NCBI GenBank assembly: GCA_049522075.1
Contig: JBEKOE010000014.1
Span: forward strand, 4,284-36,283
Direction: 5' to 3'
Length of the DNA stretch: 32,000 nucleotides
DNA from: Candidatus Acidiferrum sp.
Lineage (GTDB): Bacteria > Acidobacteriota > Terriglobia > Acidiferrales > UBA7541
Shown: positions 4,914 to 29,345 of the stretch, one piece after another
Numbering within the stretch: position 1 is the stretch's first letter
How the letters are laid out: the number at the start of each line of letters is the position of its first letter
The notes under the pieces: generated by a model
What the model saw: only the letters and a program-made list of their open reading frames with translations
Told to the model about the DNA's origin: nothing
The model's database searches: none
Program-made: the position numbers and the translations under genes

Positions 4914-5221
4914 GTGAGGAACTCCTTTGGCCAACACTGAGCGAGAAGACTCAGCGGTTGTGGGGATTCGCCCGGTCCGGCGAGGGGGGTAAGCCCAAGC
5001 CATAGGAACGGGCCAAGCAGCACCGCTGGCATAATCCGCGTAACACTAGGCAAGTCAATACGTTAAGCGGATAAGCGGTAGCAGATCTGCGGGGCCAACC
5101 CTTCCCACGAATCGGGAATCGGCAAGCCACTGAAGGGGGAGGAGCAAGAGGACGGCCAGAGCGATGGAGATTGCAGAACGAGGATGGCACTGGGTTAGCA
5201 GCGGGCGCGGTCAGCGGAGAG

Positions 5222-10516: not shown

Positions 10517-12169
10517 GTCTTCGCGCTGAACTTTGTAGACGAACCAACCGCTCGTTTGGAGTTCGAGCGGATCGGTCGAGCATGTCCACGGCGGTTTCAC
10601 CACGAATCTGCAAGGCTTGGAAGACTGCAATAGGTAGCCTTCTTTCGGTTGATCTGAATCCCACGATTGAATCTCGTTGCGCAAGTAGAAGCTGAGGCTG
10701 AATTGCTGACCGCGTGGCATTGCCGTTACGAAAGTTTGCTCTGGCGGGATCTGCGCGGCGCGCAGTTCTTGCGCGATGGTTTTCCCAGAGGGGTCATAAC
10801 GCAGAAATAATGGCGCCAAATGATTGAAGAAAAGGAGAAGAGCGAGAATCGGAACCACGCAGAGCGAGGACAGAGCGAGTGTGGTTTGCTTTGCGTTTTT
10901 CTTGGCAGCCAAGACCAAGTTTGCGAGACCAAAGAGCAGCATGATCCATCCTGCTCCCGTGGCCGCACTCGCCGTGAATCGATTAGCGCCGAAGTGCAAG
11001 GACCAAAGCACTGGGGCCACAAGGACAATTGGAATGGCCCCGCCGAGTATGAGCAAGCGAAACGTCCACCCCTCTTGCGGAACGAGGCGCACGTAGGCTC
11101 TGGAAAGAAGGAGACCGACAAGAGGCATGGCGGGGAGGATGTAGCCGGGCAGCTTGGATTTGGAGATGGAGAAGAATACGAGACAGAAGATGACCCAGCA
11201 AACGGCGAGGAGCGTGGCGTCGGAGGGGCGACGTTGCGGCCACACGCGCAAAGCCCCATGGAGGGCGGACCAGACCAGCGCCAGGGTCCATGGGGCGAAG
11301 GCGATGAGGAGTACAGGAACGAAAAACCAGCAAGGCTGGATGTGCTGGAATTCGGGGGTGAGGTAGCGTTTGAAATTGTGCTCGATGATGAAGATGCGGA
11401 AGAAATCGGGATTGCGACGGGAACAAAGGATGTACCAGGGGAGGGCGGTAAGACAGAAGCTGGCAATGGCTACCGGGTGGAGGCAGCGGAAGGCGTCACG
11501 CCAGCGTCTGGTGAGTGCCGCCCACAACAGAACGCCACCGCCGGGAAGAACGATGGCGGCGGGACCCTTCGCGAGCGTGGCGAGGCCGAGGAAAAAGCCG
11601 AAGAAAATCAAGGCGAGCCACGTCGTTCGCTGGACGGGCGGCGATTGTTGGTTGCGGGTGAGGCCCAGGATGATGGCCGCAAAGACCAGCGCAATGGTGA
11701 GCGCGCCGGCGAAGGGCATGTCCGTGGCGGCGGCGTGCGAAAAGCCGATCATGCCCACGGTGGTGGGAAGAAGAAGCAGCAACCAGCGCGCGGTCCACGG
11801 ACCATAGACACGCCAGGCCAGCCACGCCATGGCCAGGGTAGCGAGCAGCGCCGCGAAGGCGCTGGGAAAACGCGCCGCGGCATCGGTTACCCCGAAGAGT
11901 TTGAAGCTGAGCGCCGCGCCCCAGTATAGAAGGACTGGCTTTTCAAACCAGGGCTTGCCGTAGAGGCGTGGCGTAACCCAGTCGCCGGATTCGTGCATTT
12001 CGCGGGCAATCCAGGCGTAGCGCGGCTCATCTGGCCCCACAAGGCCGATGGCGCTTAAATTGTGGAAATAGCAGAGATAGAGTGTGGCGATAATGAGGAC
12101 AAGCCAGAGGGCGCGCGCGGCCATCGAGAGGGAATCGCCATCACGGCTGGAGTTGTCAGTTTGTGTCAC
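10415..12169 (-). CDS. GT39/ArnT-like (PMT_2) polyprenyl-phosphate-sugar-dependent glycosyltransferase, polytopic membrane protein
   Basis: 584-aa ORF with many hydrophobic helices. The N-terminal loop GPDEPRYAWIAREMHESGDWVTPRLYGKPWFEKPVLLYW is typical of ArnT/PMT-type GT-C enzymes. Start is GTG 12169 or ATG 12124. The 3' end overlaps the convergent gene by 102 nt. Confidence 0.85.
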   Translation of the reverse strand: MTQTDNSSRDGDSLSMAARALWLVLIIATLYLCYFHNLSAIGLVGPDEPRYAWIAREMHESGDWVTPRLYGKPWFEKPVLLYWGAALSFKLFGVTDAAARFPSAFAALLATLAMAWLAWRVYGPWTARWLLLLLPTTVGMIGFSHAAATDMPFAGALTIALVFAAIILGLTRNQQSPPVQRTTWLALIFFGFFLGLATLAKGPAAIVLPGGGVLLWAALTRRWRDAFRCLHPVAIASFCLTALPWYILCSRRNPDFFRIFIIEHNFKRYLTPEFQHIQPCWFFVPVLLIAFAPWTLALVWSALHGALRVWPQRRPSDATLLAVCWVIFCLVFFSISKSKLPGYILPAMPLVGLLLSRAYVRLVPQEGWTFRLLILGGAIPIVLVAPVLWSLHFGANRFTASAATGAGWIMLLFGLANLVLAAKKNAKQTTLALSSLCVVPILALLLFFNHLAPLFLRYDPSGKTIAQELRAAQIPPEQTFVTAMPRGQQFSLSFYLRNEIQSWDSDQPKEGYLLQSSKPCRFVVKPPWTCSTDPLELQTSGWFVYKVQREDSVSNGVDGSTLGGSSLGGGLDRGGLDTRDRQPR

Positions 12170-12192
12170 GGGTCGTTGGCTCTAAAATCAAA

Positions 12193-12365
12193 CAAGTTGC
12201 TGAAAAAACCGGAGAAGGCTTTCTTCAGGGGCTTCCGCCAAAAATCGGCGGACGCAGAGGGCGCGAAAGCCCATTCGCTTCGGGAGCTTTACGCCGGGGC
12301 CCTTCGAACCTCAGGGTGAACTGAAGCCCCGGCCTCCCAAAGAGAAAGTCTTCTTCAGCAGCTTG
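12193..12365. repeat. MITE-like structured element bounded by ~18-bp imperfect inverted repeats
   Basis: Left arm caagttgctgaaaaaacc (12193-12210) versus the reverse complement of the right arm gtcttcttcagcagcttg (12348-12365) gives 14/18 matches. Internal hairpins: ctgaaaaaa...tttcttcag (12200-12228), ccgcc-aaaaatc-ggcgg, gggc-gcgaaa-gccc, ccggggc...gccccgg. It lies in the divergent GT39 / acyltransferase intergenic region. Confidence 0.35.
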
Positions 12366-12432
12366 CTAAGTGTATCTTGGAATGGTGCAAGTCCGTCATA
12401 CTGGCGCGAAAGGACGGGGATACTTAGCACTG

Positions 12433-13341
12433 ATGAAGGAATGGCTGCAATATGCGGTGGCGTGGAGCGCGGTTAAGACGCTAGGCCTCCTGCCGCGACC
12501 GATGGCGCGAAGCGTCGCGGCAGCAGGGGCACGCCTGCTGCTCGTGGCGCGGCCCAAATTGCGCAAGACTGCGGAGTCTAATTTGCGGCTGGCGTTTCCC
12601 GATTGGACAGACGTGCAGCGCCACGAAGTCTTGCGCAAGATGACCCGCAATCTGGGGTGGATGGCCGCGGAGTTCGCGCGATTTCCGAAGTACACTCGTG
12701 AAAATATCGAGCAGGTCGTCATCCTGGATGGGCATGAGAATTTTCTTGCGGGGCAGAGCCGCAGCAAGGGTGTGCTCTACCTCACCGGCCACATCGGCGC
12801 TTGGGAACTTTCCTCGTTTGCGCACGCGCTTTACGGCTACCCGCTGCATTACATGGCGCGACCGCTGGATAACGAGCCGCTGGACCGCATGGTGAATCAC
12901 TACCGGGGGCTTTCGGGGAACCTGCCGATCTTCAAGAACGAATCGGCGCGCGTGATGCTAAGGGTGCTGAAGGAGACTGGTACGATCGGCATCCTTGCGG
13001 ACCAAAACACCATGCCGGAGGAGGGGGCGTTCGTGGATTTTTTTGGCACCCCGGCTTGTACAACGACTGGAATCGCGCGCGTGGCGCTGCACACGGATGC
13101 CGCGGTGGTGCCGGGCTACGCTTATTGGGATGAAAATCTTCGCAAGTACCGCTTGCGCTTCGAACCGCAAGTGGAATTGGTGCGTACGGAAGATCCCGAG
13201 CGCGACATTCTGGAAAACACCAGACGGTTTACCAAAGTGATCGAGGAGATCATCCGCAAGCATCCCGAGCAGTGGGTGTGGGTGCATGCGAGATGGAAGA
13301 ACCGGCCGCAGGGTGAACCGCCTTTGTATGACTTTTTATGA
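12433..13341 (+). CDS. LpxL/HtrB-family lipid A (Kdo2-lipid IVA) late acyltransferase / lysophospholipid acyltransferase family
   Basis: ORF 12370..13341. I start at ATG 12433 (MKEWLQYAVAWSAVKTLGLLP, an N-terminal anchor typical of the family). Catalytic HX4(D/E) motif LTGHIGAWEL; ILADQN; PEQWVWVHARWK near the C-terminus. Confidence 0.8.
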   Translation: MKEWLQYAVAWSAVKTLGLLPRPMARSVAAAGARLLLVARPKLRKTAESNLRLAFPDWTDVQRHEVLRKMTRNLGWMAAEFARFPKYTRENIEQVVILDGHENFLAGQSRSKGVLYLTGHIGAWELSSFAHALYGYPLHYMARPLDNEPLDRMVNHYRGLSGNLPIFKNESARVMLRVLKETGTIGILADQNTMPEEGAFVDFFGTPACTTTGIARVALHTDAAVVPGYAYWDENLRKYRLRFEPQVELVRTEDPERDILENTRRFTKVIEEIIRKHPEQWVWVHARWKNRPQGEPPLYDFL

Positions 13342-13389
13342 AGAGCAGAGAACCGCTATGTTGAAGCAACAGCAGAGGAGAAGCGGGCA

Positions 13390-14406
13390 ATGAAAAGCAC
13401 AGCGAGAGATGTGGCTCAAGCCGTTGGAGCGAAGGTGGAAGGTGATGGATCGTGGGAATTGACCGGTGTGGCCGCACCGGAGCGAGCGGGGTCGCACGAT
13501 TTGATTTACGTCGAAACGGCAAAGCATGCGGAGCGCGCGGTGGCTTCGGCAGCCGCTTGCGTCGTGGCGGGGGAGGGAATTGCCCTGCCGGGGAAGACGG
13601 TGCTACGCAGTGCGCAGCCCAAGGTGGCGTTTGCAAAGGCGGCGGCAATCCTGTTGGAGCGGCGGCCGATTGCGAGCGGAATCCACCCGACGGCGATTGT
13701 AGCGCCGCTGGCCCGGGTCGCGACGAGCGCGAGCATCGGAGCGTATGCGGTGATCGGCGAGAATGCACACATTGGAGAGGGCACGCAGATCGGGGCGCAC
13801 TGCGTGATTGGCGCAGGATGCTGGATCGGCGAAGATTGCCGCGTGCACCCGCACGTTACACTGTATGCCGGGGTGCGATTGGGAAGCCGCGCGGAGATTC
13901 ACGCGGGAGCCGTCATCGGCGCCGATGGATTCGGGTATGCGTTTGATGGAGAGCGATACTGGAAATTTCCGCAGGCAGGGATCGTGGAGATTGGCGAGGA
14001 TGTTGAGATTGGAGCGAATACGACGGTGGACCGCGGTTCGCTGGATGACACGCGTATCGGCGCGGGTGTGAAGCTGGACAATCTGGTGCACGTGGGCCAC
14101 AACGTCCAGATCGGCGAGCACACCGTGATTGCGGCGCAGACGGGCATTTCGGGCTCCTGCAAGCTGGGGCATCACGTGGTCTGCGGCGGACAAGTGGGCA
14201 TGGGGGAACATTGCACGTTAGAGGATCGAGTGATCGCTGGGGGGCAGGCGGGGATTCTAAATGGCAAGACCGTCCGGAGTGGGGAAACAGTTTGGGGAAC
14301 GCCGGCGCGGCCACTGGAAAAGTTCAAAGAGCAATATGCGCGGTTCGCACGGCTGCCGGAGTTGGCGGAGCGCGTCAAGAAGCTGGAGACTCGCCGGAAC
14401 CTTTAG
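13390..14406 (+). CDS. lpxD: UDP-3-O-acylglucosamine N-acyltransferase
   Basis: 338 aa. LpxD-type N-terminal domain ([19 protein letters not shown]..., AACVVA), followed by a long left-handed beta-helix of hexapeptide repeats (IHPTAIVAP...[44 protein letters not shown]...) and a C-terminal helix. Confidence 0.9.
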
Positions 14407-14528: not shown

Positions 14529-14666
14529 GGGTACTGCACGTACCGGAGTATTGATTTTCTAGGGTGGTTTTTTGGAAGTGTAAGGCAATAGGGAAGTTAG
14601 CTAAGCTGCTGCTTGCGGCTTAGGATCTTTGGGGGGGTTGTACGTTTCGCTCGAGGGGGAGCCGAG

Positions 14667-16709
14667 ATGGGGTCGTATGTTCGTCTGGGGGAGGAGTTGC
14701 CAGTCGCGCCTGCGCCTGCACCATGGCGGCAGGAGACTTGGGCAGAGCAGGTTGAGAAGGCCGTAGAGAGCGGCACAGAGTATCTCCTGTCCATCCAAGC
14801 TGAGGAAGGGTATTGGCACGGCGAACTCGAAGCCGACACCACCCTCGAATCCGATTACATCTACTACCTTCACGTACTCGATAAGGCCGATCCGGCGCGC
14901 ATCGCCAAGCTGGCCAACTATGTCCGGCGGAAGCAAATGGATGATGGCGGTTGGCCGATTTATCCCGGCGGCACGTCGGAACTTAACGCCACTTCAAAGG
15001 CTTATTTCGCACTAAAGCTGGCAGGGGATTCTCCCGACGCGCCGCACATGGTGAAGGCGCGCGAGGTTGTGCACCGCTTGGGTGGATTGGAACACACGAA
15101 TTCCTACGTGCGTTTTTATCTGGCGCTGGTGGGAGCGGTGGGCTGGGAGCTGGTGCCAGCGATTCCGCCGGAACTGGTGCTGTTGCCGAGCTGGTTCTAT
15201 TTCAATATTTACGAGATGTCTTCGTGGACACGCGGGATCGTAATTCCGATGGCGATATTGTCGTCGGTGCGGCCGGAGTTTCGCCTGCCAGAACACGCGC
15301 GGGTGGACGAACTGTTCAAGGATCCCACGCAGAAGACGGCGGCATTCAACTGGAGCAAGCAGATACTCTCCTGGAAGAACCTGTTTCTGGCGGTCGATCG
15401 CGGGTTGAAGCTGTACGAAAAACTGCCGTGGAAACCGCTGCGGCAAAAGGCCATCAAGGAAGCCAAGCAATGGATGCTGGAGCACATGGAGAGGACCGAG
15501 GGGCTCGCGGCCATCTATCCCTCGATGATGAACTCGATTTTTGCGCTGATGGCGCTGGGGCATGGACCGGAAGATCCGCTGACGTGGCGGGAGATTAAGG
15601 AATTTTCACGGTTTGAAATCGAGGAAGGCGACACCATTCGACTGCAGCCTTGCGTTTCCCCGGTGTGGGATACGTGCATCGCGATGGTGGCTCTTGAAGA
15701 GGCGGGCTTACCGGCGGATCATCCGGCGTTGGTGAAGGCGGCGGACTGGATCCTGACAAAACAAGTTTTGGGCAAGGGAGATTGGCAGGTCAAGAACAAG
15801 GAAGCCGAGCCGGGCGGCTGGGCGTTTGAGTTCCGCAACGATTTTTATCCCGACGTGGATGACACTGCGTTCGTGTTGATGGCGCTGCAGCGGGTGAAAT
15901 TCCCCGACGAAAAGAGGATGGAAGCAGCGATGCGCCGGGGAATCCAGTGGCTGCTGAGCATGCAGAACCGCGATGGCGGCTGGGGCGCTTTTGATCGCGA
16001 TAATGACCGACAGATCCTGTGCAACATTCCGTTCGCGGACCACAACGCCATGATCGATCCTTCCACGGCGGACGTGACCGCGCGGGTGGTGGAATGCCTG
16101 GGGCGGTTTGGGTGGCCCGGCGATCATCCGGTAGTTCACAAGGCCGTGCAGTTCCTGATAAAAGATCAGAGCAAGGACGGATCGTGGTTCGGGCGCTGGG
16201 GCGTGAATTATGTGTACGGTACAAGCGGGGTATTGCGAGCGCTGGAGACCGTGTCGCTGACGGCGCAAGATTATTGCGTGCGGGCTGTCGCCTGGCTGCG
16301 CCAGGTGCAGAAGGCCGATGGGAGCTTTGGCGAGTCGCTGCGCAGCTATGAGGTCGTCTCCAGCAAAGCGCAGGGCAATAGCACGCCATCGCAAACCGCC
16401 TGGGGATTGATTGGATTGCTTGCCGGCGCGGATCCCGACGATCCGGCGATTGCGCGTGCCGCCGCGTATCTGGTGCAGCAACAGAATGCCAACGGTTCCT
16501 GGAGCGAAGAGGATTTTACCGGCACGGGCTTCCCCGGCGTGTTTTATCTGAAATACCACCTCTACAAGCACTCTTTCCCAGTGTACGCGCTGGCTCGTTA
16601 TCGCAATCAGGCCAGCCGCGCGCAGGAGTATTGCGCCGTTAAATTCCGGCCTGGCGAATTCCGCGCGCGCCGCGGGCTGTATTCCGCGCGCGAGCGTAGC
16701 GCATCCTAA
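14667..16709 (+). CDS. shc: Squalene-hopene cyclase
   Basis: ORF 14613..16709. ATG 14667 is preceded by GGGGGAG. Motifs: DVDDTA (the DxDD protonation motif) and multiple QW-type repeats (KQMDDGGWPIY, MQNRDGGWGAF, QSKDGSWFGRWG, QKADGSFGES, QNANGSWSEE). Confidence 0.95.
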   Translation: MGSYVRLGEELPVAPAPAPWRQETWAEQVEKAVESGTEYLLSIQAEEGYWHGELEADTTLESDYIYYLHVLDKADPARIAKLANYVRRKQMDDGGWPIYPGGTSELNATSKAYFALKLAGDSPDAPHMVKAREVVHRLGGLEHTNSYVRFYLALVGAVGWELVPAIPPELVLLPSWFYFNIYEMSSWTRGIVIPMAILSSVRPEFRLPEHARVDELFKDPTQKTAAFNWSKQILSWKNLFLAVDRGLKLYEKLPWKPLRQKAIKEAKQWMLEHMERTEGLAAIYPSMMNSIFALMALGHGPEDPLTWREIKEFSRFEIEEGDTIRLQPCVSPVWDTCIAMVALEEAGLPADHPALVKAADWILTKQVLGKGDWQVKNKEAEPGGWAFEFRNDFYPDVDDTAFVLMALQRVKFPDEKRMEAAMRRGIQWLLSMQNRDGGWGAFDRDNDRQILCNIPFADHNAMIDPSTADVTARVVECLGRFGWPGDHPVVHKAVQFLIKDQSKDGSWFGRWGVNYVYGTSGVLRALETVSLTAQDYCVRAVAWLRQVQKADGSFGESLRSYEVVSSKAQGNSTPSQTAWGLIGLLAGADPDDPAIARAAAYLVQQQNANGSWSEEDFTGTGFPGVFYLKYHLYKHSFPVYALARYRNQASRAQEYCAVKFRPGEFRARRGLYSARERSAS

Positions 16710-16717: not shown

Positions 16718-17761
16718 ATGCGGTATCCCCTCCGGCTGATCTTCGATTCCGCCAAACATCTCGCTAGACACAAGCTGCGCGGTGAGCGGAAATTCGCCGT
16801 CATGCTTAGGCTAGAGCCCCAGGGCGGCTATGCGGGCACGTGCGGCGGATCGAACGGCGGAAATGGGCAGGCGGCATCGCCGCGCAGGACGCCACTCAGC
16901 GTGGAGCAATGCCTGGCGGCGATGGAGGAGTGCGACACGCCCGTGGTGGCCATCTGCGGCGGCGAACCGCTGGAGTATGAAGGAATCGCGGAGCTGACGC
17001 GCACGATCCTGGACCGCGGCAAGCATGTGTTCCTTTGCACGGACGGCACGCTGATACGGCGGCGCATGCACATGATCCTGCCGGTGACCAGTTTCTTCTG
17101 GAACGTGAGGCTTAATGGCACGGAAACCGTCCACGATTCACGCGCGGGCAAGCCGGGGCAATTCGCGGAAGCGCTGGACGGCGTAAAGGCCGCGAAGAAT
17201 GCGGGCTTTTTTGTGGTGGTGACGTCGACGGTATGCCCGGACACCAATGTGCGGGATCTGGCGGCGCTATATGAGAAGCTGCATGGCATGCACGTGGATG
17301 GTTACATGCTCGCGCCGGCGTACCTTCCCGGAAAAGTTTGCCGGGACGCGAGCGCCAAATTCCACGCCGCGATGCACCAGCGGTTCGCGGAAATCAGCGA
17401 TTCCCTGGGTGATTATAATTTGCTGGTGTCACCGGTCTATTTGGAATACCTGCGCGGGGAACGCGAACTGGATTGCAGCGTGTGGGGGAGCCCGGTATAC
17501 GGGCCGGGCGGCTGGTCTGGTCCTTGCTATTTGCTGGACTACAACCTCGAGAAGAGCTACAAAGCGCTGCTGGAAAATACGCTTTGGGAGAATTTTGGCC
17601 GGGGCATTAACCCGCGGTGTGAGACCTGCTCGTGTCACGCCGGCTTTGAGACGGCGGCTTTGCTGGGAGTGAATCGCAAAACGGGTGATGCCTGGAAGAT
17701 GCTGGCTTGGCAATTCGGCGGCGGATTGGGCGAGAAGCGAGAAAGCGTGCGGAAGCCATGA
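16718..17761 (+). CDS. hpnH: HpnH-like protein (adenosylhopane synthase homolog) lacking the canonical radical-SAM CX3CX2C triad
   Basis: 347 aa, starting 8 nt after the shc stop. HpnH-like blocks: FAVMLRLEP, LSVEQCLAAMEECDTPVVAICGGEPL, FLCTDG, VRLNGTETVHD, and a C-terminal DUF3463-like segment CSVWGSPVYGPGGWSGPCYLL...CETCSCHAGFE. Where HpnH normally has CNLACAGC, this protein reads QGGYAGTCGGSNGG. Confidence 0.8.
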   Translation: MRYPLRLIFDSAKHLARHKLRGERKFAVMLRLEPQGGYAGTCGGSNGGNGQAASPRRTPLSVEQCLAAMEECDTPVVAICGGEPLEYEGIAELTRTILDRGKHVFLCTDGTLIRRRMHMILPVTSFFWNVRLNGTETVHDSRAGKPGQFAEALDGVKAAKNAGFFVVVTSTVCPDTNVRDLAALYEKLHGMHVDGYMLAPAYLPGKVCRDASAKFHAAMHQRFAEISDSLGDYNLLVSPVYLEYLRGERELDCSVWGSPVYGPGGWSGPCYLLDYNLEKSYKALLENTLWENFGRGINPRCETCSCHAGFETAALLGVNRKTGDAWKMLAWQFGGGLGEKRESVRKP

Positions 17762-18765
17762 CGACACTTGTGACGGGGGCGGCAGGATTTCTGGGCAGCC
17801 ATGTGGCGCGGCAATTAGTGGCGCGCGGCGATGATGTGCGCGTACTGGTGCGTGCCTCGAGCAGCAATCGCGCGATCAGCGATTTGTCGCTGGAATACGT
17901 AACGGGGGATCTGCGAGATGCGGGTTCGTTGGAACGCGCAATGAACGGCGTGCAGCGCGTGTTTCACGTGGCGGCGGATTACCGGCTGTGGGCGAAAAAT
18001 CCGCAGGAGATCTACGATTCGAACGTGGGCGGGACAAAAAATTTGCTGGAGGCGGCCAAGCGCGCCGGCGTTGGCCAATTGATTTACACCAGCACCGTGG
18101 CGACGATCGCGGTGGACCGGCCCGAGCTCCCCAACGAATTCACGGAGGCAAAGCTCGAGGAGATGATCGGGCACTACAAGCGCTCGAAATGGATGGCCGA
18201 GCAGGAAGTGTTGAAGGCGGCGAAAGAAGGATTCCCCGCGATTGTGGCAATGCCCACCACGCCGGTGGGGCCGTGGGATTGGAAGCCCACGCCCACGGGA
18301 AAGATCATTCTCGATTTTCTGAATGGGAAGATGCCGGGCTACGTCGATACGGGGTTGAACTTTGTGGGCGTGGAGGAGTGCGCGGCGGGGCATCTGCTGG
18401 TTTCGGAGAAGGGCAAGATTGGCGAGCGGTATTTGCTGGGAGCGGAGAATCTGACGCTGAAGGAAGTGCTGGATACCTTGGCGAGGATCACGGGTTTACG
18501 GGCGCCAGGGATGAAAATCCCGCACTCGGTGGCGTTGGGTGTAGCCTACGTGGAAAGCGCGTTTTCACGATTGCTTGGGAAAGAGCCGGGGATTCCGGTA
18601 GAAGGCGTGAAGATCGCGCGGCACAAGATGTTTGTGGATGCTTCGCGGGCGCGGCGGGAATTGGGATTTCAGCCGGGGCCGGTGGCGGCGGCGCTGGAGC
18701 GCGCGGTGCGGTGGTATCAGGCGAATGGGTATGTGCGGGCGGGGCGGGCGAAGAAGATGAGGTAA
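17758..18765 (+). CDS. hpnA: Hopanoid-associated NAD-dependent sugar epimerase/dehydratase family protein
   Basis: The ATG at 17758 overlaps the hpnH stop as ATGA (17758-17761). Rossmann motif VTGAAGFLGSHV; SDR catalytic YKRSK (YxxxK); extended-SDR layout; position between hpnH and hpnG. Confidence 0.85.
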   Translation: MTTLVTGAAGFLGSHVARQLVARGDDVRVLVRASSSNRAISDLSLEYVTGDLRDAGSLERAMNGVQRVFHVAADYRLWAKNPQEIYDSNVGGTKNLLEAAKRAGVGQLIYTSTVATIAVDRPELPNEFTEAKLEEMIGHYKRSKWMAEQEVLKAAKEGFPAIVAMPTTPVGPWDWKPTPTGKIILDFLNGKMPGYVDTGLNFVGVEECAAGHLLVSEKGKIGERYLLGAENLTLKEVLDTLARITGLRAPGMKIPHSVALGVAYVESAFSRLLGKEPGIPVEGVKIARHKMFVDASRARRELGFQPGPVAAALERAVRWYQANGYVRAGRAKKMR

Positions 18766-18806: not shown

Positions 18807-19592
18807 ATGAGGGTGCTGGTGACATTTGCGGTGGAAGCGGAATTTGCGCCGTGGCGCAAGCGATGGCCATTCGAGATCGCAGCGGCCGGGGGAATTCGAT
18901 TCTGGCGGGCGGACATCGATGACTGCAACGTCACAGTTCTTTTGACGGCGATGGGGACCTTAGCAGCGGTGTTGACGGTTGACACCTTTTTGCGAAAGGA
19001 GAATGAGGACAAATCCTTCGCTGTTTGTATTTCTAGCGGGCTAGCGGGCGCTTTACGGGAAACACTGGGACCGGGAGATATCATTGCACCACGAATGCTC
19101 GTGCCTGAGACCGTCTACCCGGAGCGGCAAGAGAATCGATTGGAGGTTAATGCGGCATTGCGGGAACTGGCGCTGAAGTGTGGGGCCAAAGGGACTGATT
19201 GTCTTTGGACTGCCGACCAAGTTCTCGTCAAGGCTGCCGATAAGAAGATTTATTCTTCACGGGCAGAAGCAGTGGACATGGAGAGCTTTGGGATTGCCAC
19301 GGAAGCCGGAGCATGGGGATTACGAACCGTAGTCGTCCGGGCAATAAGCGATTCGGTAGTAGAGGACCTCCCGCTAGACTTCAATCGGACCCTGTCGGAC
19401 AACGAACAAATCAGTGTGTCAAAGGTGTTGATCCAGCTGGCGAAGAGGCCGTCGGCAATCCCTGCGATGGTCAAGTTCGGCCTGCAGAGTCGAAGGGCCG
19501 CGGAATCGCTGGCAACGTTTCTGGATAAGTATCTTCGAGAATTAAGCAAAGTGTCTGCATTAAGCGGTTCAAATGAAATGGCGACGCGATGA
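18807..19592 (+). CDS. hpnG: Hopanoid-associated nucleoside phosphorylase/nucleosidase (PNP_UDP_1 family)
   Basis: This is the C-terminal 261 aa of the listed ORF 17988..19592; the upstream part of that ORF overlaps hpnA out of frame. MRVLVTFAVEAEF..., SSGLAGAL, AVDMESFGIA (a nucleosidase-type DMES motif). The alternative in-frame GTG 18780 would add 9 aa. Confidence 0.8.
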   Translation: MRVLVTFAVEAEFAPWRKRWPFEIAAAGGIRFWRADIDDCNVTVLLTAMGTLAAVLTVDTFLRKENEDKSFAVCISSGLAGALRETLGPGDIIAPRMLVPETVYPERQENRLEVNAALRELALKCGAKGTDCLWTADQVLVKAADKKIYSSRAEAVDMESFGIATEAGAWGLRTVVVRAISDSVVEDLPLDFNRTLSDNEQISVSKVLIQLAKRPSAIPAMVKFGLQSRRAAESLATFLDKYLRELSKVSALSGSNEMATR

Positions 19593-20695
19593 GCGGAGCT
19601 GAGACGGTGGTGGAGCAGGTGAGAATGTTGGGGCCAATACCGAAGACGATGCGGGCGGGGGTGTTCCGGGAGAAGGGCGTGGTGCGGGTGGAGGAAGTGC
19701 CTGTGCCGGAGGTGCGGGACGGCGAGGTGCTTATTAAGGTGGCGGCGTGCGGCATCTGCGGCACGGACATCAAGAAGATATTTCAGCGCTACGTGGAACC
19801 GCCACAGATCCTGGGCCATGAGCTGGCTGGAACAGTTGCGGCGCTGGGGCGCGGCGTGACCAAATGGAAATTGGGCGACCGTGTGATGAGTTTCCACCAC
19901 GTTCCTTGCGGGACATGTTTCTACTGCAGGAACCGGCTTTTTTCACAATGCACGCAATACAAAACGACCGGGTTAACGGGGGGGTTCACGCCGAACGGCG
20001 GAGGCTTTGGGGAATACGTGAAGGCGATGCCGTGGGTAGCGGAGCGGGGGATCGTGGCGTTGCCGGACAATGTGACGTTTGAAGAGGCCACGTTCATCGA
20101 ACCCATCAATACCATCATGAAGGCGGTGCAGAAGGCGCGCGTCACGGCTGGCGAGACGGTGCTCATTGCCGGGTGCGGTCCCATCGGCCTGCAGCTTCTG
20201 ATGGTTGCCAAATATGGGGGAGCGCGCATCTATACGAGTGACCCCATGGCCACGCGTCGTGAGAAAAGCTTAAGATTGGGAGCTGTGGAGTCTTTTGACC
20301 CCATAAATGATAAGCTTGTGGAAGCGTTGCACGCACGTACCGAGGGACGGGGGGTAGACGCGGTCCTGGTGGCTGTAGCGCATCCGGCCGTGGTCGCAGA
20401 TGCTTTGGCGGCGGCGCGGCCCGGTGGCAGGGTGCTTCTGTTTGCCGCAAACGACCCTGTCACGAGAATTGAGTTTCCCGCCGCGGCTATAGGGATAGAC
20501 GAGAAAGAAATCTTGGGCAGCTACAGCGCGGCCATGGACATCCAAGAAAGCGCGGCAGCGCTGGTGCTGGAAAAGAAACTGCCGGTGATGGAGATTGTGA
20601 CGCACCGGTTTCCGCTAAGTAGAATCCAAGAGGGCTTGGAACTGGCGGCGAGGCCCACGGAAACTTCGCTGAAGGTCCTGATCACGCACGAATGA
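19589..20695 (+). CDS. MDR-superfamily zinc-dependent dehydrogenase (polyol / threonine dehydrogenase-like), canonical active site
   Basis: The start ATG overlaps the hpnG stop (ATGA 19589-19592); alternative starts are ATG 19625 and ATG 19649 (MRAGVF...). Catalytic-zinc motifs ACGICGTD, GHE and EP; structural zinc CGTCFYCRNRLFSQC; Rossmann GCGPIG. Confidence 0.85.
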   Translation: MSGAETVVEQVRMLGPIPKTMRAGVFREKGVVRVEEVPVPEVRDGEVLIKVAACGICGTDIKKIFQRYVEPPQILGHELAGTVAALGRGVTKWKLGDRVMSFHHVPCGTCFYCRNRLFSQCTQYKTTGLTGGFTPNGGGFGEYVKAMPWVAERGIVALPDNVTFEEATFIEPINTIMKAVQKARVTAGETVLIAGCGPIGLQLLMVAKYGGARIYTSDPMATRREKSLRLGAVESFDPINDKLVEALHARTEGRGVDAVLVAVAHPAVVADALAAARPGGRVLLFAANDPVTRIEFPAAAIGIDEKEILGSYSAAMDIQESAAALVLEKKLPVMEIVTHRFPLSRIQEGLELAARPTETSLKVLITHE

Positions 20696-21807
20696 GAGCA
20701 GCATCCACAAAAAGGACAGAGATGGGGGTGGAAGAAGTGCTGGCCCCGACGAAGATCCTCGTGCCATCAAGAATGACGGCGGCGGTGCTATACGGCAGCG
20801 AAGATCTACGCGTCGAGCAAATCGATGTGCCTGCATTGTCGGCCGAAGAAGTGCTTCTGCGGGTGCGCCTGGCCCTGACCGACGGCACCGACCTGAAGGT
20901 CTGGATACGCGGCTACCACGCGAAGATGATCCGGCCACCGGCGGTGTTTGGCCACGAAGTGGTTGGCGAGATTGTCGCCGTGGGGAAGCGCGTGGACACG
21001 AAATGGCGGCTGGGTACGCGGGTGGTAGCCGCCAACTCCGCGCCCTGCTTCCGCTGCTACCAATGCCGCCGCGGCCAGGAAAATCTTTGCGAGGATCTGC
21101 TTTTTAACAACGGAGCATACGCCGAATACATGCGCATTCCCGGACGCATCGTCCGGGAGAACATGCTGGAAGTGCCGCACTCAATAGACGACCACAGCGC
21201 CGCGCTGGTGGAACCCCTGGCATGCGTGCTGCGCGGGATTCATGAAATGGAAGTGCGCACGGGCGACACGGCTGCGGTGATTGGCTGCGGTCCCATCGGA
21301 CTGAAATTTGTGCGCATGTTGTCGCGTCGCGGCGTACGAGTGATCGCGCTGGCCCGCCGGGAGGCTCCCCTGGAGGTTGCACGCAAGCTGGGTGCCGTAG
21401 CGACCATCAATGTCACCGAGGTTGCCGACGTTGCCGGTGCGGTGAAGGCGCTGACCGATGAGCAGCGCGGGCCGGACTGCGTGGTGGAGGCCGCCGGTAA
21501 TCCCGCGACTTGGCAGCAAGCGCTGGCGATGGTGCGACGCGGCGGGGTGGTGAATTTCTTCAGCGGGCTCCCCAAGGACACGCGGGTGGAAATCGCGCCG
21601 GCCACCATTCACTATTCGGAAATCAAGATTATTTCACCGTTCCATCACACGCCGCGCTTTATCCGTGAAGCGATGGAAGCGATCCGCCGTGGCGATATAT
21701 CGGCCCAGGATTTTGTCACCGAGGAGATTGGCCTGGTCGATCTGCCGCAGGCGTTTGAGCGCATGAAGGCGCGCAGCGGCGAAATCAAGCTGGCCGTGAG
21801 GCCGTAG
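20692..21807 (+). CDS. MDR-superfamily dehydrogenase paralog with the catalytic-zinc Cys replaced
   Basis: The start ATG overlaps the preceding stop (ATGA 20692-20695); the alternative start ATG 20773 (MTAAVLYG...) matches typical MDR N-termini. Structural zinc CFRCYQCRRGQENLC, GHE, VEP and GCGPIG are retained, but the ACGICGTD position reads RLALTDGTD. Confidence 0.8.
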   Translation: MRAASTKRTEMGVEEVLAPTKILVPSRMTAAVLYGSEDLRVEQIDVPALSAEEVLLRVRLALTDGTDLKVWIRGYHAKMIRPPAVFGHEVVGEIVAVGKRVDTKWRLGTRVVAANSAPCFRCYQCRRGQENLCEDLLFNNGAYAEYMRIPGRIVRENMLEVPHSIDDHSAALVEPLACVLRGIHEMEVRTGDTAAVIGCGPIGLKFVRMLSRRGVRVIALARREAPLEVARKLGAVATINVTEVADVAGAVKALTDEQRGPDCVVEAAGNPATWQQALAMVRRGGVVNFFSGLPKDTRVEIAPATIHYSEIKIISPFHHTPRFIREAMEAIRRGDISAQDFVTEEIGLVDLPQAFERMKARSGEIKLAVRP

Positions 21808-21909: not shown

Positions 21910-23859
21910 ATGCTGTGTCCAGACGAGCTTGAAATTGCTGCCAGACTGCCGACCAACGGGTGCGCGGCAGATGAAGCGCAAGCGTACACGCGGTGGCTGG
22001 CGACGCACCACTACGAAAATTTCAACGTTGTGTCCTGGCTCCTGCCGAAGGAACTGCACCAGCATTTCTATAATGTTTATGCGTATTGCCGGTGGGCGGA
22101 TGATTTGGGCGACGAAATCCCTGAGAGCGCGCGCGCACTAGAGTTGTTGGACTGGTGGGAGCGGGAGTTAGACGCTTGCTATGAGGGTAGGCCCGTACAT
22201 CCCGTGTTTGTGGCTCTTCGCGAAACGGTGGTGGCCAAGGACGTTCCGAAGCAGCCGTTCGCGGATTTATTGAAGGCGTTTCGTCAGGACCAGGTGGTCA
22301 AGCGTTACGGGACTTGGGAAGGCGTGCTTGATTATTGTGTGTACTCGGCAAATCCCGTTGGGCGGCTGGTGTTGTACTTATGCGGTTACCGGGATGAGCA
22401 CCGACAACGGCTTTCCGATGCGACTTGTACGGCGCTGCAGCTCGCCAATTTCTGGCAGGATGTTTCGCGGGACCTGGAGAAGGGACGAATCTACATACCG
22501 CTGGAGCGGGCCGCGGCGCACGGCGTCAGCGAAAGCGACATTGTTGGAAAGAAATTCAGCGAGCGATATACCTCGCTGATGAGGGAGCTGATCAAGTACA
22601 CGCGAGAGCTTTTTGAAAAAGGCAGGCCACTATCCAGAATGGTGGACGGTAAATTAAGCGTGGATTTGGAGATGTTCAGCCGGGGCGGGCTGGCGGTACT
22701 GGATGCGATTGAAGCGATGGGCTATGACACGCTGAACCGTCGGCCCAAGGTGAGCAAGGGGAAGCAGGTGCGGTTGCTGGGGCGCGCGATGGTAGCGCAG
22801 GTGTTCGAGCGGGGCGGCGAGAATCGCAACGGAGGATTTCCACGCGAGGGGGCACGATTTTCGGTTGCGGATGGAACTTCGCGGGAAATTGCGGCGTCGT
22901 ACGCAGAATGCCATCGCATGGCTCGGGCTGCCCACAGCAACTTCTATCCCGCGTTTTTCCTTCTGCCCAAGGCGAAGCGGGACGGGATTGTGGCGCTGTA
23001 TGCGTTCATGCGCTTGATTGACAATGTTTCTGATGGAGGCGGCAACCTGGCGGAAAAGCAGCGCGGGCTGGCGAGGTGGCGTGCGGCGCTGGATCAGGCG
23101 ATTACCGGGCAATTGCAGGTGTTCGACGGAAACGCAGCGATGGAGTCTCCGGTGGCTACGCTGCCGGGCGCGGAAGAGGTGTTGCCTGCGCTGGTGGACA
23201 CGATCGGCCGCTTCGATATGCCAGCGCGTTATCTGCATGACCTGATTTCCGGCGCGGAAATGGACTTAACGATCCAGGCGTATCCCTCATTCGAGCGACT
23301 GGAGGAGTATTGCTACCGTGTGGCAGGGACCGTTGGACTGACCTGCACGCACATTTTCGGATTTCGAGATGCGAAGGCGCTGGACCTTGCGGAGAAGCTT
23401 GGGCTGGCGTTTCAACTGACGAATATTATTCGGGATGTCCGGGAAGATTACGCGAATGGCCGCGTGTATTTGCCGGAAGAGGATTTGGCGCGCTACAGCG
23501 TGGCGAAAACGGATTTTGGCAGAAACGAAGCCACGCTGGGCGTGCATGAATTGCTGCGGTTTGAGACAGAACGCGCCTGGAGGCTGTACGAGGAAGGCGC
23601 AAAGCTGCTTAGCCTGATTGACGAAGACAGCCGGGGCACGTTGTGGCTGCTGGTGCACACGTATAGCGCGTTGCTGGCGCGGATTGAATCAAAGGATTTT
23701 GCCGTTTTCGGGGAGCGTTTGCGGCTTTCCAAAGCGGAAAAACTGAAGTTGGTTGCCAAGGCGCGTTTCGGGCGCCCTACGGAAGAGAACATACTTGCAA
23801 AGCGTGATCGTGATCGGCGGGGGACTGGCGGGGCTGTCGGCGGGCGTCGCACTGGCTGA
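21910..23859 (+). CDS. hpnC/hpnD: Fused HpnC-HpnD: two tandem squalene/phytoene-synthase-fold domains (hydroxysqualene synthase-like + presqualene diphosphate synthase-like)
   Basis: A single 649-aa ORF. Domain 1: HHYENFNVVSWLLP, YCRWADDLGDE, NFWQDVSRDLEKGRIYIP. Domain 2: SNFYPAFFLLPKAKRDGIVALYAFMRLIDNVSDGG, NIIRDVREDYANGRVYLPEEDL. The domains are joined by a Gly/Arg-rich linker (ERGGENRNGGFPREGARF). Confidence 0.85.
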   Translation: MLCPDELEIAARLPTNGCAADEAQAYTRWLATHHYENFNVVSWLLPKELHQHFYNVYAYCRWADDLGDEIPESARALELLDWWERELDACYEGRPVHPVFVALRETVVAKDVPKQPFADLLKAFRQDQVVKRYGTWEGVLDYCVYSANPVGRLVLYLCGYRDEHRQRLSDATCTALQLANFWQDVSRDLEKGRIYIPLERAAAHGVSESDIVGKKFSERYTSLMRELIKYTRELFEKGRPLSRMVDGKLSVDLEMFSRGGLAVLDAIEAMGYDTLNRRPKVSKGKQVRLLGRAMVAQVFERGGENRNGGFPREGARFSVADGTSREIAASYAECHRMARAAHSNFYPAFFLLPKAKRDGIVALYAFMRLIDNVSDGGGNLAEKQRGLARWRAALDQAITGQLQVFDGNAAMESPVATLPGAEEVLPALVDTIGRFDMPARYLHDLISGAEMDLTIQAYPSFERLEEYCYRVAGTVGLTCTHIFGFRDAKALDLAEKLGLAFQLTNIIRDVREDYANGRVYLPEEDLARYSVAKTDFGRNEATLGVHELLRFETERAWRLYEEGAKLLSLIDEDSRGTLWLLVHTYSALLARIESKDFAVFGERLRLSKAEKLKLVAKARFGRPTEENILAKRDRDRRGTGGAVGGRRTG

Positions 23860-29006: not shown

Positions 29007-29345
29007 AGACGAGTTTTCCCGCTTGACAGATTCTGTAGTCGGCGGTAAAAAAATAATGGCCGGGTTTTTTACGGTTTTTATACCCCCCTTCCGCTACGTT
29101 ACACGGCTGCCGTACCCTACCTGCCGCGTTGCGTTTCAAATTAGAGACCTGAAAGGCGATCAATGGTTTGGCCGAGCCATCTCCTCGGGTCATCAGTCTG
29201 CGAGCAGAGGTTAGCCTCTGCAGTCCTGTACCCCCCCGGCAGTGTGATCTGCCTTATAAGGCCCCCGTAGGCTCATTCATTTCCTCCAGTCTTTTGCCCC
29301 AGACGGAGTCAGCTCTTTGCAATAAGTTTCTAAGAGAGGTGTTCA

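What the first reader, a model, noticed from the sequence alone, without database searches (positions are those of the whole stretch)
16811..16894. HpnH homolog without the radical-SAM CX3CX2C iron-sulfur motif
Canonical HpnH has ...LEP.FRCNLACAGCGKI... shortly before the conserved LSVEEC...GGEPL block. Here the equivalent 28 residues read LEPQGGYAGTCGGSNGGNGQAASPRRTP. Only one Cys remains, in a Gly-rich low-complexity patch, and neither alternative frame restores the triad, so this is not a simple frameshift. The rest of the protein (the GGEPL SAM-binding block and the C-terminal DUF3463-like Cys cluster CSVWG...GPCYLL...CETCSCH) is well conserved. As written, the protein cannot ligate the SAM-cleaving [4Fe-4S] cluster in the usual way, yet it occupies the hpnH slot and hpnG (which needs adenosylhopane) follows it. 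There are four possible explanations. A functional hpnH paralog may exist elsewhere. This may be a non-catalytic partner. It may use unconventional cluster ligation. The pathway may be decaying.
Basis: partly seen in the sequence, partly recalled or inferred. Interest (0 to 1): 0.7.

Follow-up and report, generated by a model that had tools for sequence, protein, structure and literature searches.

The report
HpnH ortholog lacking its iron-sulfur motif
In a whole lineage of uncultured soil Acidobacteria, the gene in the slot of the radical enzyme that starts hopanoid side-chain synthesis (HpnH) has lost its iron-sulfur-binding cysteines but is still kept by selection, so databases that call it a working HpnH, and lipid predictions built on that, are probably wrong for this group.

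Summary
ORF 16718..17761 (+, 347 aa) is an HpnH homolog whose residues 32-59 read LEPQGGYAGTCGGSNGGNGQAASPRRTP. It has no CX3CX2C, and neither alternative frame restores one.

It is not an error or a decaying gene:
- All 167 distinct relatives I examined lack the motif, including 59 GTDB species of Candidatus Acidoferrales/Acidiferrum. They carry a Gly-rich loop of 11-29 residues with 0-3 Cys.
- The sister clade, in identical synteny (shc-hpnH-hpnA-hpnG-ADH-ADH-hpnCD-hpnE), keeps an invariant LEPLHACNLTCTGCGRIREY. The cluster-less gene is therefore the positional ortholog of canonical HpnH, and the motif was lost once.
- Outside the loop it is under purifying selection (dN/dS about 0.10; loop 0.45, against 0.05 in canonical relatives).
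- Markers of radical catalysis are relaxed or replaced: the second Gly of GGE, the Cys106-equivalent hydrogen donor, N109D, H131K/R and N169T/S.
- Four C-terminal Cys stay invariant, and a new Cys208 is invariant in the metagenome alignment (95% of GTDB species).

I read it as a pseudo-radical-SAM protein that cannot cleave SAM reductively and now has a non-radical role in the hopanoid module. I found no second canonical hpnH, but I could not search whole genomes. NCBI and JGI still name it HpnH.

The parts
14613..16709 (+). shc (squalene-hopene cyclase). This is the maximal ORF from TTG; an ATG at 14667 is an alternative start.
   Evidence: TIGR01507, 782.5 bits. It lies directly upstream of the HpnH slot in every related locus with enough sequence.
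16718..17761 (+). Cluster-less HpnH ortholog (347 aa): radical-SAM-fold core plus DUF3463 domain, without CX3CX2C.
   Evidence: Positional ortholog of canonical HpnH. dN/dS 0.12. The AlphaFold core 60-200 has pLDDT about 90-97, and the best PDB fold matches are the radical SAM enzymes BlsE, SkfB, SuiB and anSME.
16730..16777 (+). N-terminal helix (residues 5-20), conserved in both the cluster-less and canonical clades. A membrane-association role is my inference.
   Evidence: Predicted helix 5-20 in both models. The MRYP/MRFP N-terminus is conserved.
16820..16894 (+). Degenerate former cluster-binding loop (residues 35-59, QGGYAGTCGGSNGGNGQAASPRRTP). It lies inside the flagged 16811..16894.
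   Evidence: It replaces the invariant HACNLTCTGCGRIREYKST of the sister clade. In 167 distinct relatives the loop is 11-29 aa, 27% Gly, with 0/1/2/3 Cys in 18/70/59/20 proteins. Loop dN/dS is 0.45, against 0.05 in canonical relatives.
16958..16972 (+). GGEPL (residues 81-85), the SAM amino-group motif of radical SAM enzymes. Intact in the window, relaxed at its second Gly across the clade.
   Evidence: G82 is 100% in canonical proteins but 71-83% in the clade (substituted by A, R, N, P, S, D). G81, E83, P84 and L85 stay (nearly) invariant.
17036..17047 (+). C107-T-D-G. C107 is the equivalent of Cys106, the hydrogen-atom donor of Zymomonas mobilis HpnH. N109 of the canonical TNG has become D.
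   Evidence: C107 is 97-100% conserved in canonical proteins but 69-86% in the clade (S, Y, H, T, L, F). N109D is a fixed difference. The role of Cys106 is from Sato et al. 2021, as cited in PMC12583986.
17339..17341 (+). Cys208, a cysteine gained by the cluster-less clade: invariant in alignment A1, 56 of 59 GTDB species, and Q/M/A in the sister clade.
17474..17635 (+). C-terminal DUF3463 cysteine set (C253, C270, C301, C304 invariant; C306 variable). Probably a retained structural or auxiliary metal site.
   Evidence: The four Cys are 100% conserved in the clade and at least 94% in canonical HpnH.
17758..18765 (+). hpnA (hopanoid-associated SDR/epimerase). Its start overlaps the stop of the cluster-less hpnH by ATGA.
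   Evidence: TIGR03466, 445.9 bits. Overlap seen in the sequence. Conserved in synteny.
18807..19592 (+). hpnG-like PNP/MTA-nucleosidase-family gene (261 aa). It scores below the HpnG cut-off.
   Evidence: TIGR03468, 104.6 bits against a cut-off of 187.1. The VDMESF and RAISD motifs are kept. The slot is hypervariable in both clades.
19589..21807 (+). Two tandem Zn-dependent alcohol-dehydrogenase-family genes (19589..20695 and 20692..21807), part of the conserved operon.
   Evidence: Pfam ADH_N and ADH_zinc_N. Present in every locus of both clades that extends far enough downstream.
21910..25207 (+). Fused hpnC-hpnD squalene-synthase-like gene (21910..23859) and hpnE amine-oxidase-like gene (ORF 23753..25207; start uncertain).
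   Evidence: Pfam SQS_PSY in two stretches, and Amino_oxidase. Synteny. The fused hpnCD was reported for subdivision-2 Acidobacteria in PMC5462960.

Best explanation
The ORF is the lineage's ortholog of HpnH, the radical-SAM adenosylhopane synthase. In the ancestor of one Acidoferrales/Acidiferrum clade (apparently subdivision-2 Acidobacteria) it lost the three cysteines that hold the SAM-cleaving [4Fe-4S] cluster. The former cluster loop drifted into a variable Gly/Ser/Asn-rich linker. The rest of the protein (N-terminal helix, radical-SAM barrel core, DUF3463 domain with four Cys) stayed folded and under purifying selection, and it acquired its own fixed residues.

Shown: the motif is absent across the clade. 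The gene is a positional ortholog of canonical HpnH. The motif was lost once. Selection persists. Residues needed for radical chemistry are relaxed.

Inferred: the protein can no longer cleave SAM reductively, so it does not make adenosylhopane by the known mechanism. It survives as a pseudo-radical-SAM protein with a non-radical job in the shc-hpnH-hpnA-hpnG operon. The most likely job is binding a hopanoid and/or a nucleoside ligand, or scaffolding for its operon partners. A corollary is that these bacteria probably make C30 hopanoids but not adenosylhopane-derived C35 bacteriohopanepolyols by the canonical route.
For: - Motif absent throughout the clade. None of the 120 best homologs (65-99% identity) or the 59 GTDB species loci has CX3CX2C. 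Of 167 distinct proteins, 88% have fewer than 3 Cys in the loop and 18 have none; no Cys spacing is conserved.
- Positional orthology. The sister clade (21 GTDB loci, 45-48% identity) has an invariant LEPLHACNLTCTGCGRIREY in the same gene order: PMT_2, lipid-A acyltransferase, LpxD, SHC, HpnH, HpnA, HpnG, ADH, ADH, HpnCD, HpnE.
- Single loss. In a neighbour-joining tree the cluster-less proteins are monophyletic and sister to the canonical clade, on a 1.7-fold longer path (0.325 against 0.192).
- Still selected. dN/dS is 0.10 outside the loop and 0.45 in the loop. In canonical relatives the loop is 0.05 and the rest 0.13.
- Constraint pattern inverted. Median identity within the clade is 0.67 for HpnH and 0.88 for SHC; in the canonical clade it is 0.82 for HpnH and 0.68 for SHC.
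- Catalytic markers relaxed or replaced. G82 of GGE falls from 100% to 71-83%. The Cys106 equivalent falls from 97-100% to 69-86%. N109D, H131K/R and N169T/S are changed. There are 21 fixed differences, plus a gained Cys208 (99% of metagenome proteins, 95% of GTDB species).
- Fold retained. AlphaFold core pLDDT is about 90-97, and the top PDB hits are radical SAM enzymes.
- Operon coupling. There is a 9-base gap after shc and an ATGA overlap with hpnA.
- No second HpnH-like gene lies within 10 kb in any of 80 loci, and none was seen on the clade's Mb-scale contigs in three protein searches.
Against: - hpnA, and an hpnG-like nucleosidase that keeps its catalytic-looking motifs, remain in the operon and under purifying selection. 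If no adenosylhopane were made, hpnG would be expected to decay.
- PMC5462960 reports side-chain tailoring genes (hpnI, hpnJ, hpnO) in some subdivision-2 genomes. That would imply a working route to C35 hopanoids.
- E83, P84 and L85 of GGEPL, T108, G110, H139 and D194-G195 stay invariant. Some SAM-like or nucleoside ligand may therefore still be bound.
- About 60% of members keep the first two Cys positions, more than pure neutrality would suggest.
- I could not search whole genomes for a second hpnH.
- There are no biochemical or lipid data for any member; no cultured representative was found in the literature search.
Confidence: 0.6

Rival explanations
1. A second, canonical hpnH elsewhere in these genomes makes adenosylhopane. 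The cluster-less copy would then be a non-catalytic partner, regulator or spare.
For: hpnG-like and hpnA are retained and selected. PMC5462960 lists downstream side-chain genes in some subdivision-2 genomes, and one subdivision-2 bin had two hpnH hits. My searches were not exhaustive: protein searches list only the best 120 hits and the GTDB scan keeps only the best 80 of 196.
Against: The cluster-less gene sits in the ancestral shc-adjacent slot, so a canonical copy would have to be a relocated duplicate or a horizontal acquisition. None of the 21 canonical loci returned by the GTDB scan comes from an assembly that also holds a cluster-less copy. Every canonical locus with enough upstream sequence, including two on Mb-scale contigs, lies in the shc slot, with no 'stray' copy. 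No canonical hit shares a contig length with the cluster-less clade's contigs of 1-7 Mb, which include two complete chromosomes. No canonical protein in the 50%-identity representative library was listed at more than 39% identity, and the closest found in GTDB are 45-48% identical, so there is no recent paralog.
Confidence: 0.2
2. The protein is still an adenosylhopane synthase and holds its SAM-cleaving cluster through unconventional ligands. Candidates are the remaining loop Cys plus invariant C65/C72/C208, the C-terminal Cys, or a partner protein.
For: Seven Cys are (nearly) invariant in the clade: C65, C72, C208, C253, C270, C301, C304. C208 is a clade-specific gain. Most of GGEPL is kept. 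Twenty of 167 members have three loop Cys. Radical SAM enzymes with non-canonical Cys spacing exist (my own knowledge, not tested here).
Against: Eighteen members have no loop Cys and 70 have one. Where three occur, their spacing varies (3-4, 3-7, 3-1, 0-10 and others). C65 and C72 are equally conserved in canonical HpnH, which already has its own triad. Residues that radical chemistry should keep invariant, the Cys106 equivalent and G82, are relaxed.
Confidence: 0.12
3. The gene is a decaying pseudogene in a pathway that is being lost.
For: It is the fastest-evolving well-aligned gene of the operon within the clade: dN/dS is 0.12-0.17, against 0.03-0.05 for shc. The loop is strongly relaxed.
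Against: The full-length ORF of 332-352 aa is intact in 57 of 59 species loci; L060 is cut by the contig end and L054 has a deletion. dN/dS is 0.10 outside the loop. More than 100 positions are invariant and 21 are fixed clade-specific residues. It is translationally coupled to its neighbours.
Confidence: 0.02
4. Sequencing or assembly error in this window.
For: None beyond the local G+C-rich, low-complexity sequence.
Against: The same loop type occurs in independent short-read and long-read assemblies from many studies, including a 99%-identical protein. Neither alternative frame restores the motif.
Confidence: 0.01

Closest known systems
Canonical HpnH (adenosyl-hopene transferase / adenosylhopane synthase, TIGR03470; characterised in Streptomyces coelicolor, Zymomonas mobilis and Methylobacterium)
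   Same: Same family model (253.6 bits, above the cut-off) and the same Radical_SAM + DUF3463 architecture. It has the same N-terminal helix and the same four C-terminal Cys, and it occupies the same operon slot next to shc.
   Different: No CX3CX2C. It scores about 180 bits lower than neighbouring canonical orthologs. The Cys106 equivalent and the second Gly of GGE are relaxed. N109D, H131K/R and N169T/S are changed. Canonical chemistry needs reductive SAM cleavage by the cluster (PMC13459092).
Canonical HpnH of the sister Acidiferrales/Terriglobia clade (for example loci L062 and L064-L083, and proteins P0409-P0528)
   Same: Closest relatives with an intact motif (45-48% identity). The 11-gene synteny is identical, so they are true positional orthologs.
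   Different: They have an invariant LEPLHACNLTCTGCGRIREY, score 431-437 bits on TIGR03470, and are 80-82% identical within the clade. They carry an extra Gly/Asn-rich C-terminal tail of 35-55 aa. Position 208 is Q, not C.
TIGR04347 'pseudo-SAM/SPASM protein' of haloarchaea (NCBIfam family name)
   Same: By its curated name, a radical-SAM/SPASM-fold family that lacks a functional SAM-cluster motif. It gives a weak hit to the barrel core of this protein (43.4 bits). It is the nearest named precedent for a 'pseudo-radical-SAM' protein.
   Different: An unrelated lineage and context. The score is far below its cut-off of 525. I did not examine its sequences, so the resemblance rests on the family's name only.
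BlsE (PDB 7vob) and other twitch/SPASM radical SAM enzymes (SkfB, SuiB, anSME)
   Same: Closest solved folds (Foldseek E = 7e-12 for 7vob; sequence match over residues 66-180).
   Different: All of them have the CX3CX2C cluster. Identity is only 13-18%, and their substrates are unrelated.
MqnE (aminofutalosine synthase)
   Same: [quoted passage not shown]
   Different: Not a close homolog. It bears only on what the window protein can no longer do.

Membership tests
HpnH (TIGR03470 equivalog, adenosyl-hopene transferase) | Whole-protein score above the curated cut-off (225.05 bits) | tested here: met
   253.6 bits. Clade members score 243-245 and canonical neighbours 431-437. The more divergent cluster-less P0124 scores 164 and fails.
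HpnH (TIGR03470 equivalog, adenosyl-hopene transferase) | CX3CX2C motif ligating the SAM-cleaving [4Fe-4S] cluster | tested here: not met
   Absent in the window and in all 167 distinct clade members.
HpnH (TIGR03470 equivalog, adenosyl-hopene transferase) | Conserved Cys (Cys106 of Z. mobilis HpnH) that reduces the C22 radical intermediate | tested here: inconclusive
   Present in the window (C107), but only 69-86% conserved in the clade against 97-100% in canonical proteins. Its role is taken from the literature.
HpnH (TIGR03470 equivalog, adenosyl-hopene transferase) | C-terminal DUF3463 domain with conserved Cys | tested here: met
   PF11946, 101.1 bits. C253, C270, C301 and C304 are invariant.
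HpnH (TIGR03470 equivalog, adenosyl-hopene transferase) | Hopanoid gene-cluster context (next to shc, with hpnA and hpnG) | tested here: met
   Gene order shc-hpnH-hpnA-hpnG, identical to the canonical sister clade.
HpnH (TIGR03470 equivalog, adenosyl-hopene transferase) | [quoted passage not shown] | not testable with these tools
   Needs an enzyme assay or genetic complementation. Sequence evidence argues against it.
Radical SAM superfamily (PF04055) | Partial TIM-barrel radical-SAM core fold | tested here: met
   PF04055, 46.3 bits over residues 53-187. The AlphaFold core is confident, and the Foldseek top hits are all radical SAM enzymes.
Radical SAM superfamily (PF04055) | Three-Cys site with an open iron for SAM | tested here: not met
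   No alternative conserved triad is plausible from the topology (inference).
Radical SAM superfamily (PF04055) | GGE motif for the SAM amino group | tested here: met
   The window has GGEPL. Across the clade the second Gly is relaxed to 71-83%.
Pseudogene | Disrupted reading frame or neutral evolution (dN/dS near 1) | tested here: not met
   The ORF is intact in the window and in 57 of 59 species loci. dN/dS is 0.12 overall and 0.10 outside the loop.

The most novel reading that the evidence does not exclude
The cluster-less protein is the only HpnH-type gene in these genomes and the operon still produces extended (C35-type) hopanoids. Attachment of the adenosyl/ribosyl side chain would then proceed without an intrinsic radical-SAM cluster. 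One route would be polar attack of the diploptene double bond on C5' of SAM, with Cys208 and other clade-specific residues in the active site. Another would be a cluster supplied in trans by a partner. Either would be a new way to make the C30-C5' bond, and a rare case of a radical SAM scaffold repurposed for non-radical chemistry.
Probability: 0.1. Interest if true: 0.9.

Novelty: new variant of a known kind. Interest (0 to 1): 0.65.

Why it matters
- HpnH is the accepted genetic marker for the ability to make C35 bacteriohopanepolyols, the precursors of the extended geohopanes used as biomarkers. Recent surveys treat TIGR03470 hits as reliable (10.1101/2025.07.29.667474).
- In this clade of at least 59 species of soil and peat Acidobacteria, with no cultured representative found, every protein scored here (window 253.6 bits; two clade members 243 and 245) passes that model by 18-29 bits and several are named 'adenosyl-hopene transferase HpnH' by NCBI and JGI. 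Yet they lack the cofactor-binding site without which the known reaction cannot occur.
- The published conclusion that subdivision-2 Acidobacteria encode the complete pathway rests on BLAST hits to hpnH (PMC5462960). It should be re-examined if those genomes belong to this clade.
- For enzymology, this is a well-populated pseudo-radical-SAM family under selection, with a canonical ortholog in identical context as a built-in control. That makes the questions 'what does a radical SAM fold do without its cluster?' and 'what else does HpnH do besides catalysis?' directly testable.

Tried and rejected
- Frameshift or sequencing error. Both other frames were translated and 167 distinct relatives examined. 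Rejected.
- Tandem-repeat slippage as the origin of the Gly-rich loop. No repeat was found.
- A second hpnH inside the window. tblastn with the ORF and with a canonical sequence recalled from memory (unverified, used only as a probe) found only this gene.
- A second copy near related loci. None within 10 kb in 80 loci.
- A second copy on the same contigs or assemblies.
  - I compared the contig lengths of canonical hits from two protein searches (a planctomycete-type query, and an Acidiferrales-type query) with the clade's long contigs.
  - One search was partly wasted, because the nearest canonical representative turned out to be planctomycetal.
  - Two canonical hits on Mb-scale contigs proved to be ordinary shc-slot genes of other genomes.
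- Taxonomy of representative proteins through cluster look-ups. These gave few names.
- AlphaFold confidence as evidence that the loop is disordered. The control model of a canonical ortholog at equal alignment depth also has pLDDT below 50 in its cluster loop (residues 39-54) and is poorer overall (mean 59 against 72). Loop pLDDT is therefore uninformative. Model coordinates are not returned, so Cys-Cys distances could not be measured.
- Solved structures. There is no HpnH structure; the best sequence hit is BlsE.
- Literature. I found no paper on a cluster-less HpnH, on pseudo-radical-SAM HpnH, or on hopanoids of Acidoferrales.
- The first dN/dS script timed out and was rewritten. In one search dS is near saturation (about 1.2), so I rely on the pairs with dS below 1.
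- Promoter and terminator scans were at chance level.
Full report
**1. The observation**

The window carries an ORF at 16718..17761 (+, 347 aa). Its residues 32-59, encoded by 16811..16894, read LEPQGGYAGTCGGSNGGNGQAASPRRTP. That stretch has one cysteine and no C-x3-C-x2-C. The two other forward frames give no Cys triad, and there is no tandem repeat.

The protein scores 253.6 bits on NCBIfam TIGR03470 (HpnH equivalog, cut-off 225.05). It matches Pfam Radical_SAM over residues 53-187 only, that is downstream of where the cluster motif should be, and DUF3463 over 202-327.

**2. Context**

The gene sits in a hopanoid operon:
- shc (14613..16709, TIGR01507, 782 bits);
- the HpnH-like ORF, 9 bases downstream of shc;
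- hpnA (446 bits);
- an HpnG-like nucleosidase-family gene (104.6 bits, below its cut-off of 187);
- two Zn-dependent alcohol-dehydrogenase-family genes;
- a fused hpnC-hpnD gene and hpnE.

Upstream lie LpxD, a lipid-A acyltransferase and an ArnT-like PMT_2 glycosyltransferase. A fused hpnCD was reported as typical of subdivision-2 Acidobacteria (PMC5462960). No second HpnH-like sequence exists in the 32-kb window.

**3. The variant is clade-wide**

A search of 5.8 billion proteins returned 599 homologs. The best 120 are 65-99% identical and about 345 aa long, and none has CX3CX2C.

A scan of one genome per GTDB species found 196 relatives, of which the best 80 loci were kept.
- Fifty-nine loci (60-92% identity) come from MAGs named Candidatus Acidoferrales, Acidoferrum or Acidiferrum. 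They include Ca. Acidiferrum typicum UBA7541 and two complete chromosomes. All 59 lack the motif.
- Over 167 distinct sequences the loop is 11-29 residues long and 27% glycine. It holds 0, 1, 2 or 3 Cys in 18, 70, 59 and 20 proteins. No spacing is conserved and none is CX3CX2C.
- The window's closest relatives differ at position 38 (Y, C or R), as expected for a weakly constrained site.

**4. It is the positional ortholog of a canonical HpnH**

The other 21 GTDB loci (45-48% identity; labelled Ca. Acidiferrales or Terriglobia) encode 373-403-aa proteins with an invariant LEPLHACNLTCTGCGRIREY. Their gene order is the same across all eleven genes, from PMT_2 to hpnE. Two further canonical genes on Mb-scale contigs show the same order.

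Between the two clades SHC is 61-78% identical and HpnA 62-78%, but HpnH only 45-48%. In a neighbour-joining tree with the loop excluded, the cluster-less proteins are monophyletic and sister to this canonical clade. That group also includes a more divergent 315-aa protein, P0124, which NCBI calls hypothetical. Path lengths from the common ancestor are 0.325 for the cluster-less clade and 0.192 for the canonical clade. The motif was therefore lost once, in place, in the ancestral hpnH gene.

**5. Selection**

I computed Nei-Gojobori dN/dS on pairs with dS below 1.

| Region or gene | Cluster-less clade | Canonical sister clade |
|---|---|---|
| HpnH, whole gene | 0.12 | 0.12 |
| HpnH, loop (residues 35-59) | 0.45 | 0.05 |
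| HpnH, rest of protein | 0.10 | 0.13 |
| SHC | 0.033 | 0.098 |
| HpnA | 0.089 | 0.182 |
| ADH2 | 0.036 | 0.106 |

The protein is clearly maintained, while the former cluster loop has lost about nine-fold in constraint.

The gene's rank within the operon has also inverted. Median amino-acid identity within the cluster-less clade is 0.67 for HpnH and 0.88 for SHC. Within the canonical clade it is 0.82 for HpnH and 0.68 for SHC. This rules out a pseudogene. It fits a protein that changed its job.

**6. Catalytic markers**

Residues that radical chemistry should hold fixed are relaxed or replaced:
- The second Gly of the GGE motif is 100% conserved in canonical proteins and 71-83% here, substituted by A, R, N, P, S or D.
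- The equivalent of Cys106, shown by Sato et al. 2021 to reduce the C22 radical (cited in PMC12583986), drops from 97-100% to 69-86%.
- N109 becomes D, H131 becomes K or R, and N169 becomes T or S.

Other residues stay invariant: E83-P84-L85, T108, G110, D194-G195, C65, C72 and the four C-terminal Cys (C253, C270, C301, C304); H139 is nearly so (98%). The clade has 21 fixed differences of its own. It also has Cys208 (99% of the metagenome proteins, 56 of 59 GTDB species), where the sister clade has Q.

This pattern suggests that a folded, ligand-binding protein is preserved and that reductive SAM cleavage and radical quenching are not.

**7. Structure**

An AlphaFold model built from a 37-sequence alignment has pTM 0.76. 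The beta/alpha core (residues 60-200) has pLDDT about 90-97. Foldseek places it with the radical SAM twitch/SPASM enzymes BlsE (7vob), SkfB, SuiB and anSME. No HpnH structure exists.

The loop is modelled with low confidence. The same is true of the intact cluster loop in a control model of a canonical ortholog, so this says nothing.

From the strand and helix order, C72 lies at the bottom of beta2, while C80, C107 and C208 lie at the top of the barrel. A relocated triad made of C65, C72 and C208 therefore looks unlikely. This is an inference; I had no coordinates.

**8. Is there a canonical hpnH elsewhere?**

I could not scan whole genomes. The indirect evidence is negative:
- No HpnH-like gene lies within 10 kb of any of 80 loci.
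- No assembly appears in both the cluster-less and canonical sets.
- Every canonical locus with enough upstream sequence occupies the shc slot, so no 'stray' copies were seen.
- In three protein searches, no canonical hit lies on the clade's contigs of 1-7 Mb.
- An exhaustive search of 50%-identity representatives listed no full-length canonical protein above 39% identity to the window protein; the closest canonical proteins found by any search are the 45-48% identical sister clade.

I put that at about 0.2.

**9. Mechanism**

[quoted passage not shown] Without the ligands, and with the hydrogen-donor Cys and GGE relaxed, this protein most likely cannot do that.

I therefore read it as a pseudo-radical-SAM protein retained for a non-radical function within the shc-hpnH-hpnA-hpnG module. 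The function is most likely ligand or hopanoid binding, or scaffolding (confidence 0.6). The function itself is inferred.

The main tension is that hpnA and a catalytically plausible hpnG-like gene persist. This leaves three possibilities open:
- a hidden canonical paralog;
- unconventional cluster ligation (0.12);
- non-radical or partner-assisted side-chain attachment, which is the most novel reading (about 0.1).

**10. Comparison and novelty**

By score, architecture and context this is an HpnH-family member. It fails the defining cofactor motif, so it should not be filed as an adenosyl-hopene transferase. NCBI and JGI do name it so.

The nearest named precedent for a radical-SAM fold without its cluster motif is NCBIfam TIGR04347, 'pseudo-SAM/SPASM protein'. 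I judged that by its name only.

I found no paper describing a cluster-less HpnH or hopanoids of Acidoferrales. The published inference of a complete bacteriohopanepolyol pathway in subdivision-2 Acidobacteria relied on BLAST hits to hpnH.

I rate it a new variant of a known kind, with interest 0.65.

Noticed in passing
window 18807..19592 (+); loci L004-L083 at the equivalent slot: The hpnG-like slot is hypervariable. The window's product is only 38% identical to that of its nearest relative L004, although flanking HpnA, ADH1 and SHC are 95-98% identical. Its best match among the GTDB loci compared is 54%. Several subtypes alternate within both clades (median identity 0.38 and 0.42), while the VDMESF and RAISD motifs persist. 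This looks like repeated cassette replacement or recombination at one position of an otherwise conserved operon.
   Followed up: partly
window 19589..21807 (+): Two tandem Zn-dependent alcohol-dehydrogenase-family genes sit between the hpnG-like gene and hpnCD. They are conserved at 82-99% identity to the window's copies within the clade and are present in both clades wherever the locus extends that far. They are not part of textbook hopanoid clusters and may be the 'unknown gene' reported after hpnA-hpnG in PMC5462960.
   Followed up: partly
window 10415..14406: An ArnT-like PMT_2 glycosyltransferase (minus strand), a lipid-A acyltransferase and LpxD lie directly upstream of shc. In most related loci of both clades that extend far enough upstream they appear in the same order. 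This suggests that hopanoid and lipid-A genes are linked in this lineage.
   Followed up: partly
loci L018, L025, L029, L049, L051, L054, L059, L063 (and L062, L073, L082 in the canonical clade): MAGs of the SMAG_U series that carry this Acidoferrales-type 20-kb synteny are labelled as other phyla (Limnocylindrales, Baltobacteraceae, Verrucomicrobiia, Eisenbacteria, Methylomirabilota, Dongiaceae, Eremiobacteraceae, Dormiibacterota, Binatia). These are probably binning or labelling errors.
   Followed up: no
P0124 (315 aa, Candidatus Acidiferrum sp., contig 24,665 bp): A more divergent cluster-less branch. Its loop is shorter (GKRPSPENPKRKT) with no Cys. It scores 164 bits on TIGR03470, below the cut-off, and NCBI calls it hypothetical. 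It groups with the cluster-less clade in the tree. I could not look up its gene context.
   Followed up: partly
loci L062, L064-L083, about 150 bases at the 3' end of each hpnH: Canonical HpnH proteins of the sister clade carry a Gly/Asn-rich low-complexity C-terminal tail of 35-55 aa. The cluster-less clade lacks it.
   Followed up: no
window 16910..16933 (C65, C72) and 16955..16957 (C80): Canonical HpnH proteins conserve three further Cys just after the cluster loop (C64, C71 and C79 are invariant in the sister clade; 85-91% in a wider set). I found no function assigned to them. The cluster-less clade keeps the first two invariant and relaxes the third to 69%.
   Followed up: no
window 2655..5003 (-): A 781-aa transketolase-family ORF that also matches the N-terminal domain of DXP synthase. 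It may be relevant to isoprenoid precursor supply.
   Followed up: no
window 29343..30446 (-), 30606..31391 (-), 1598..2878 (-): Three ORFs of 260-425 aa with no Pfam match at E <= 1e-5.
   Followed up: no
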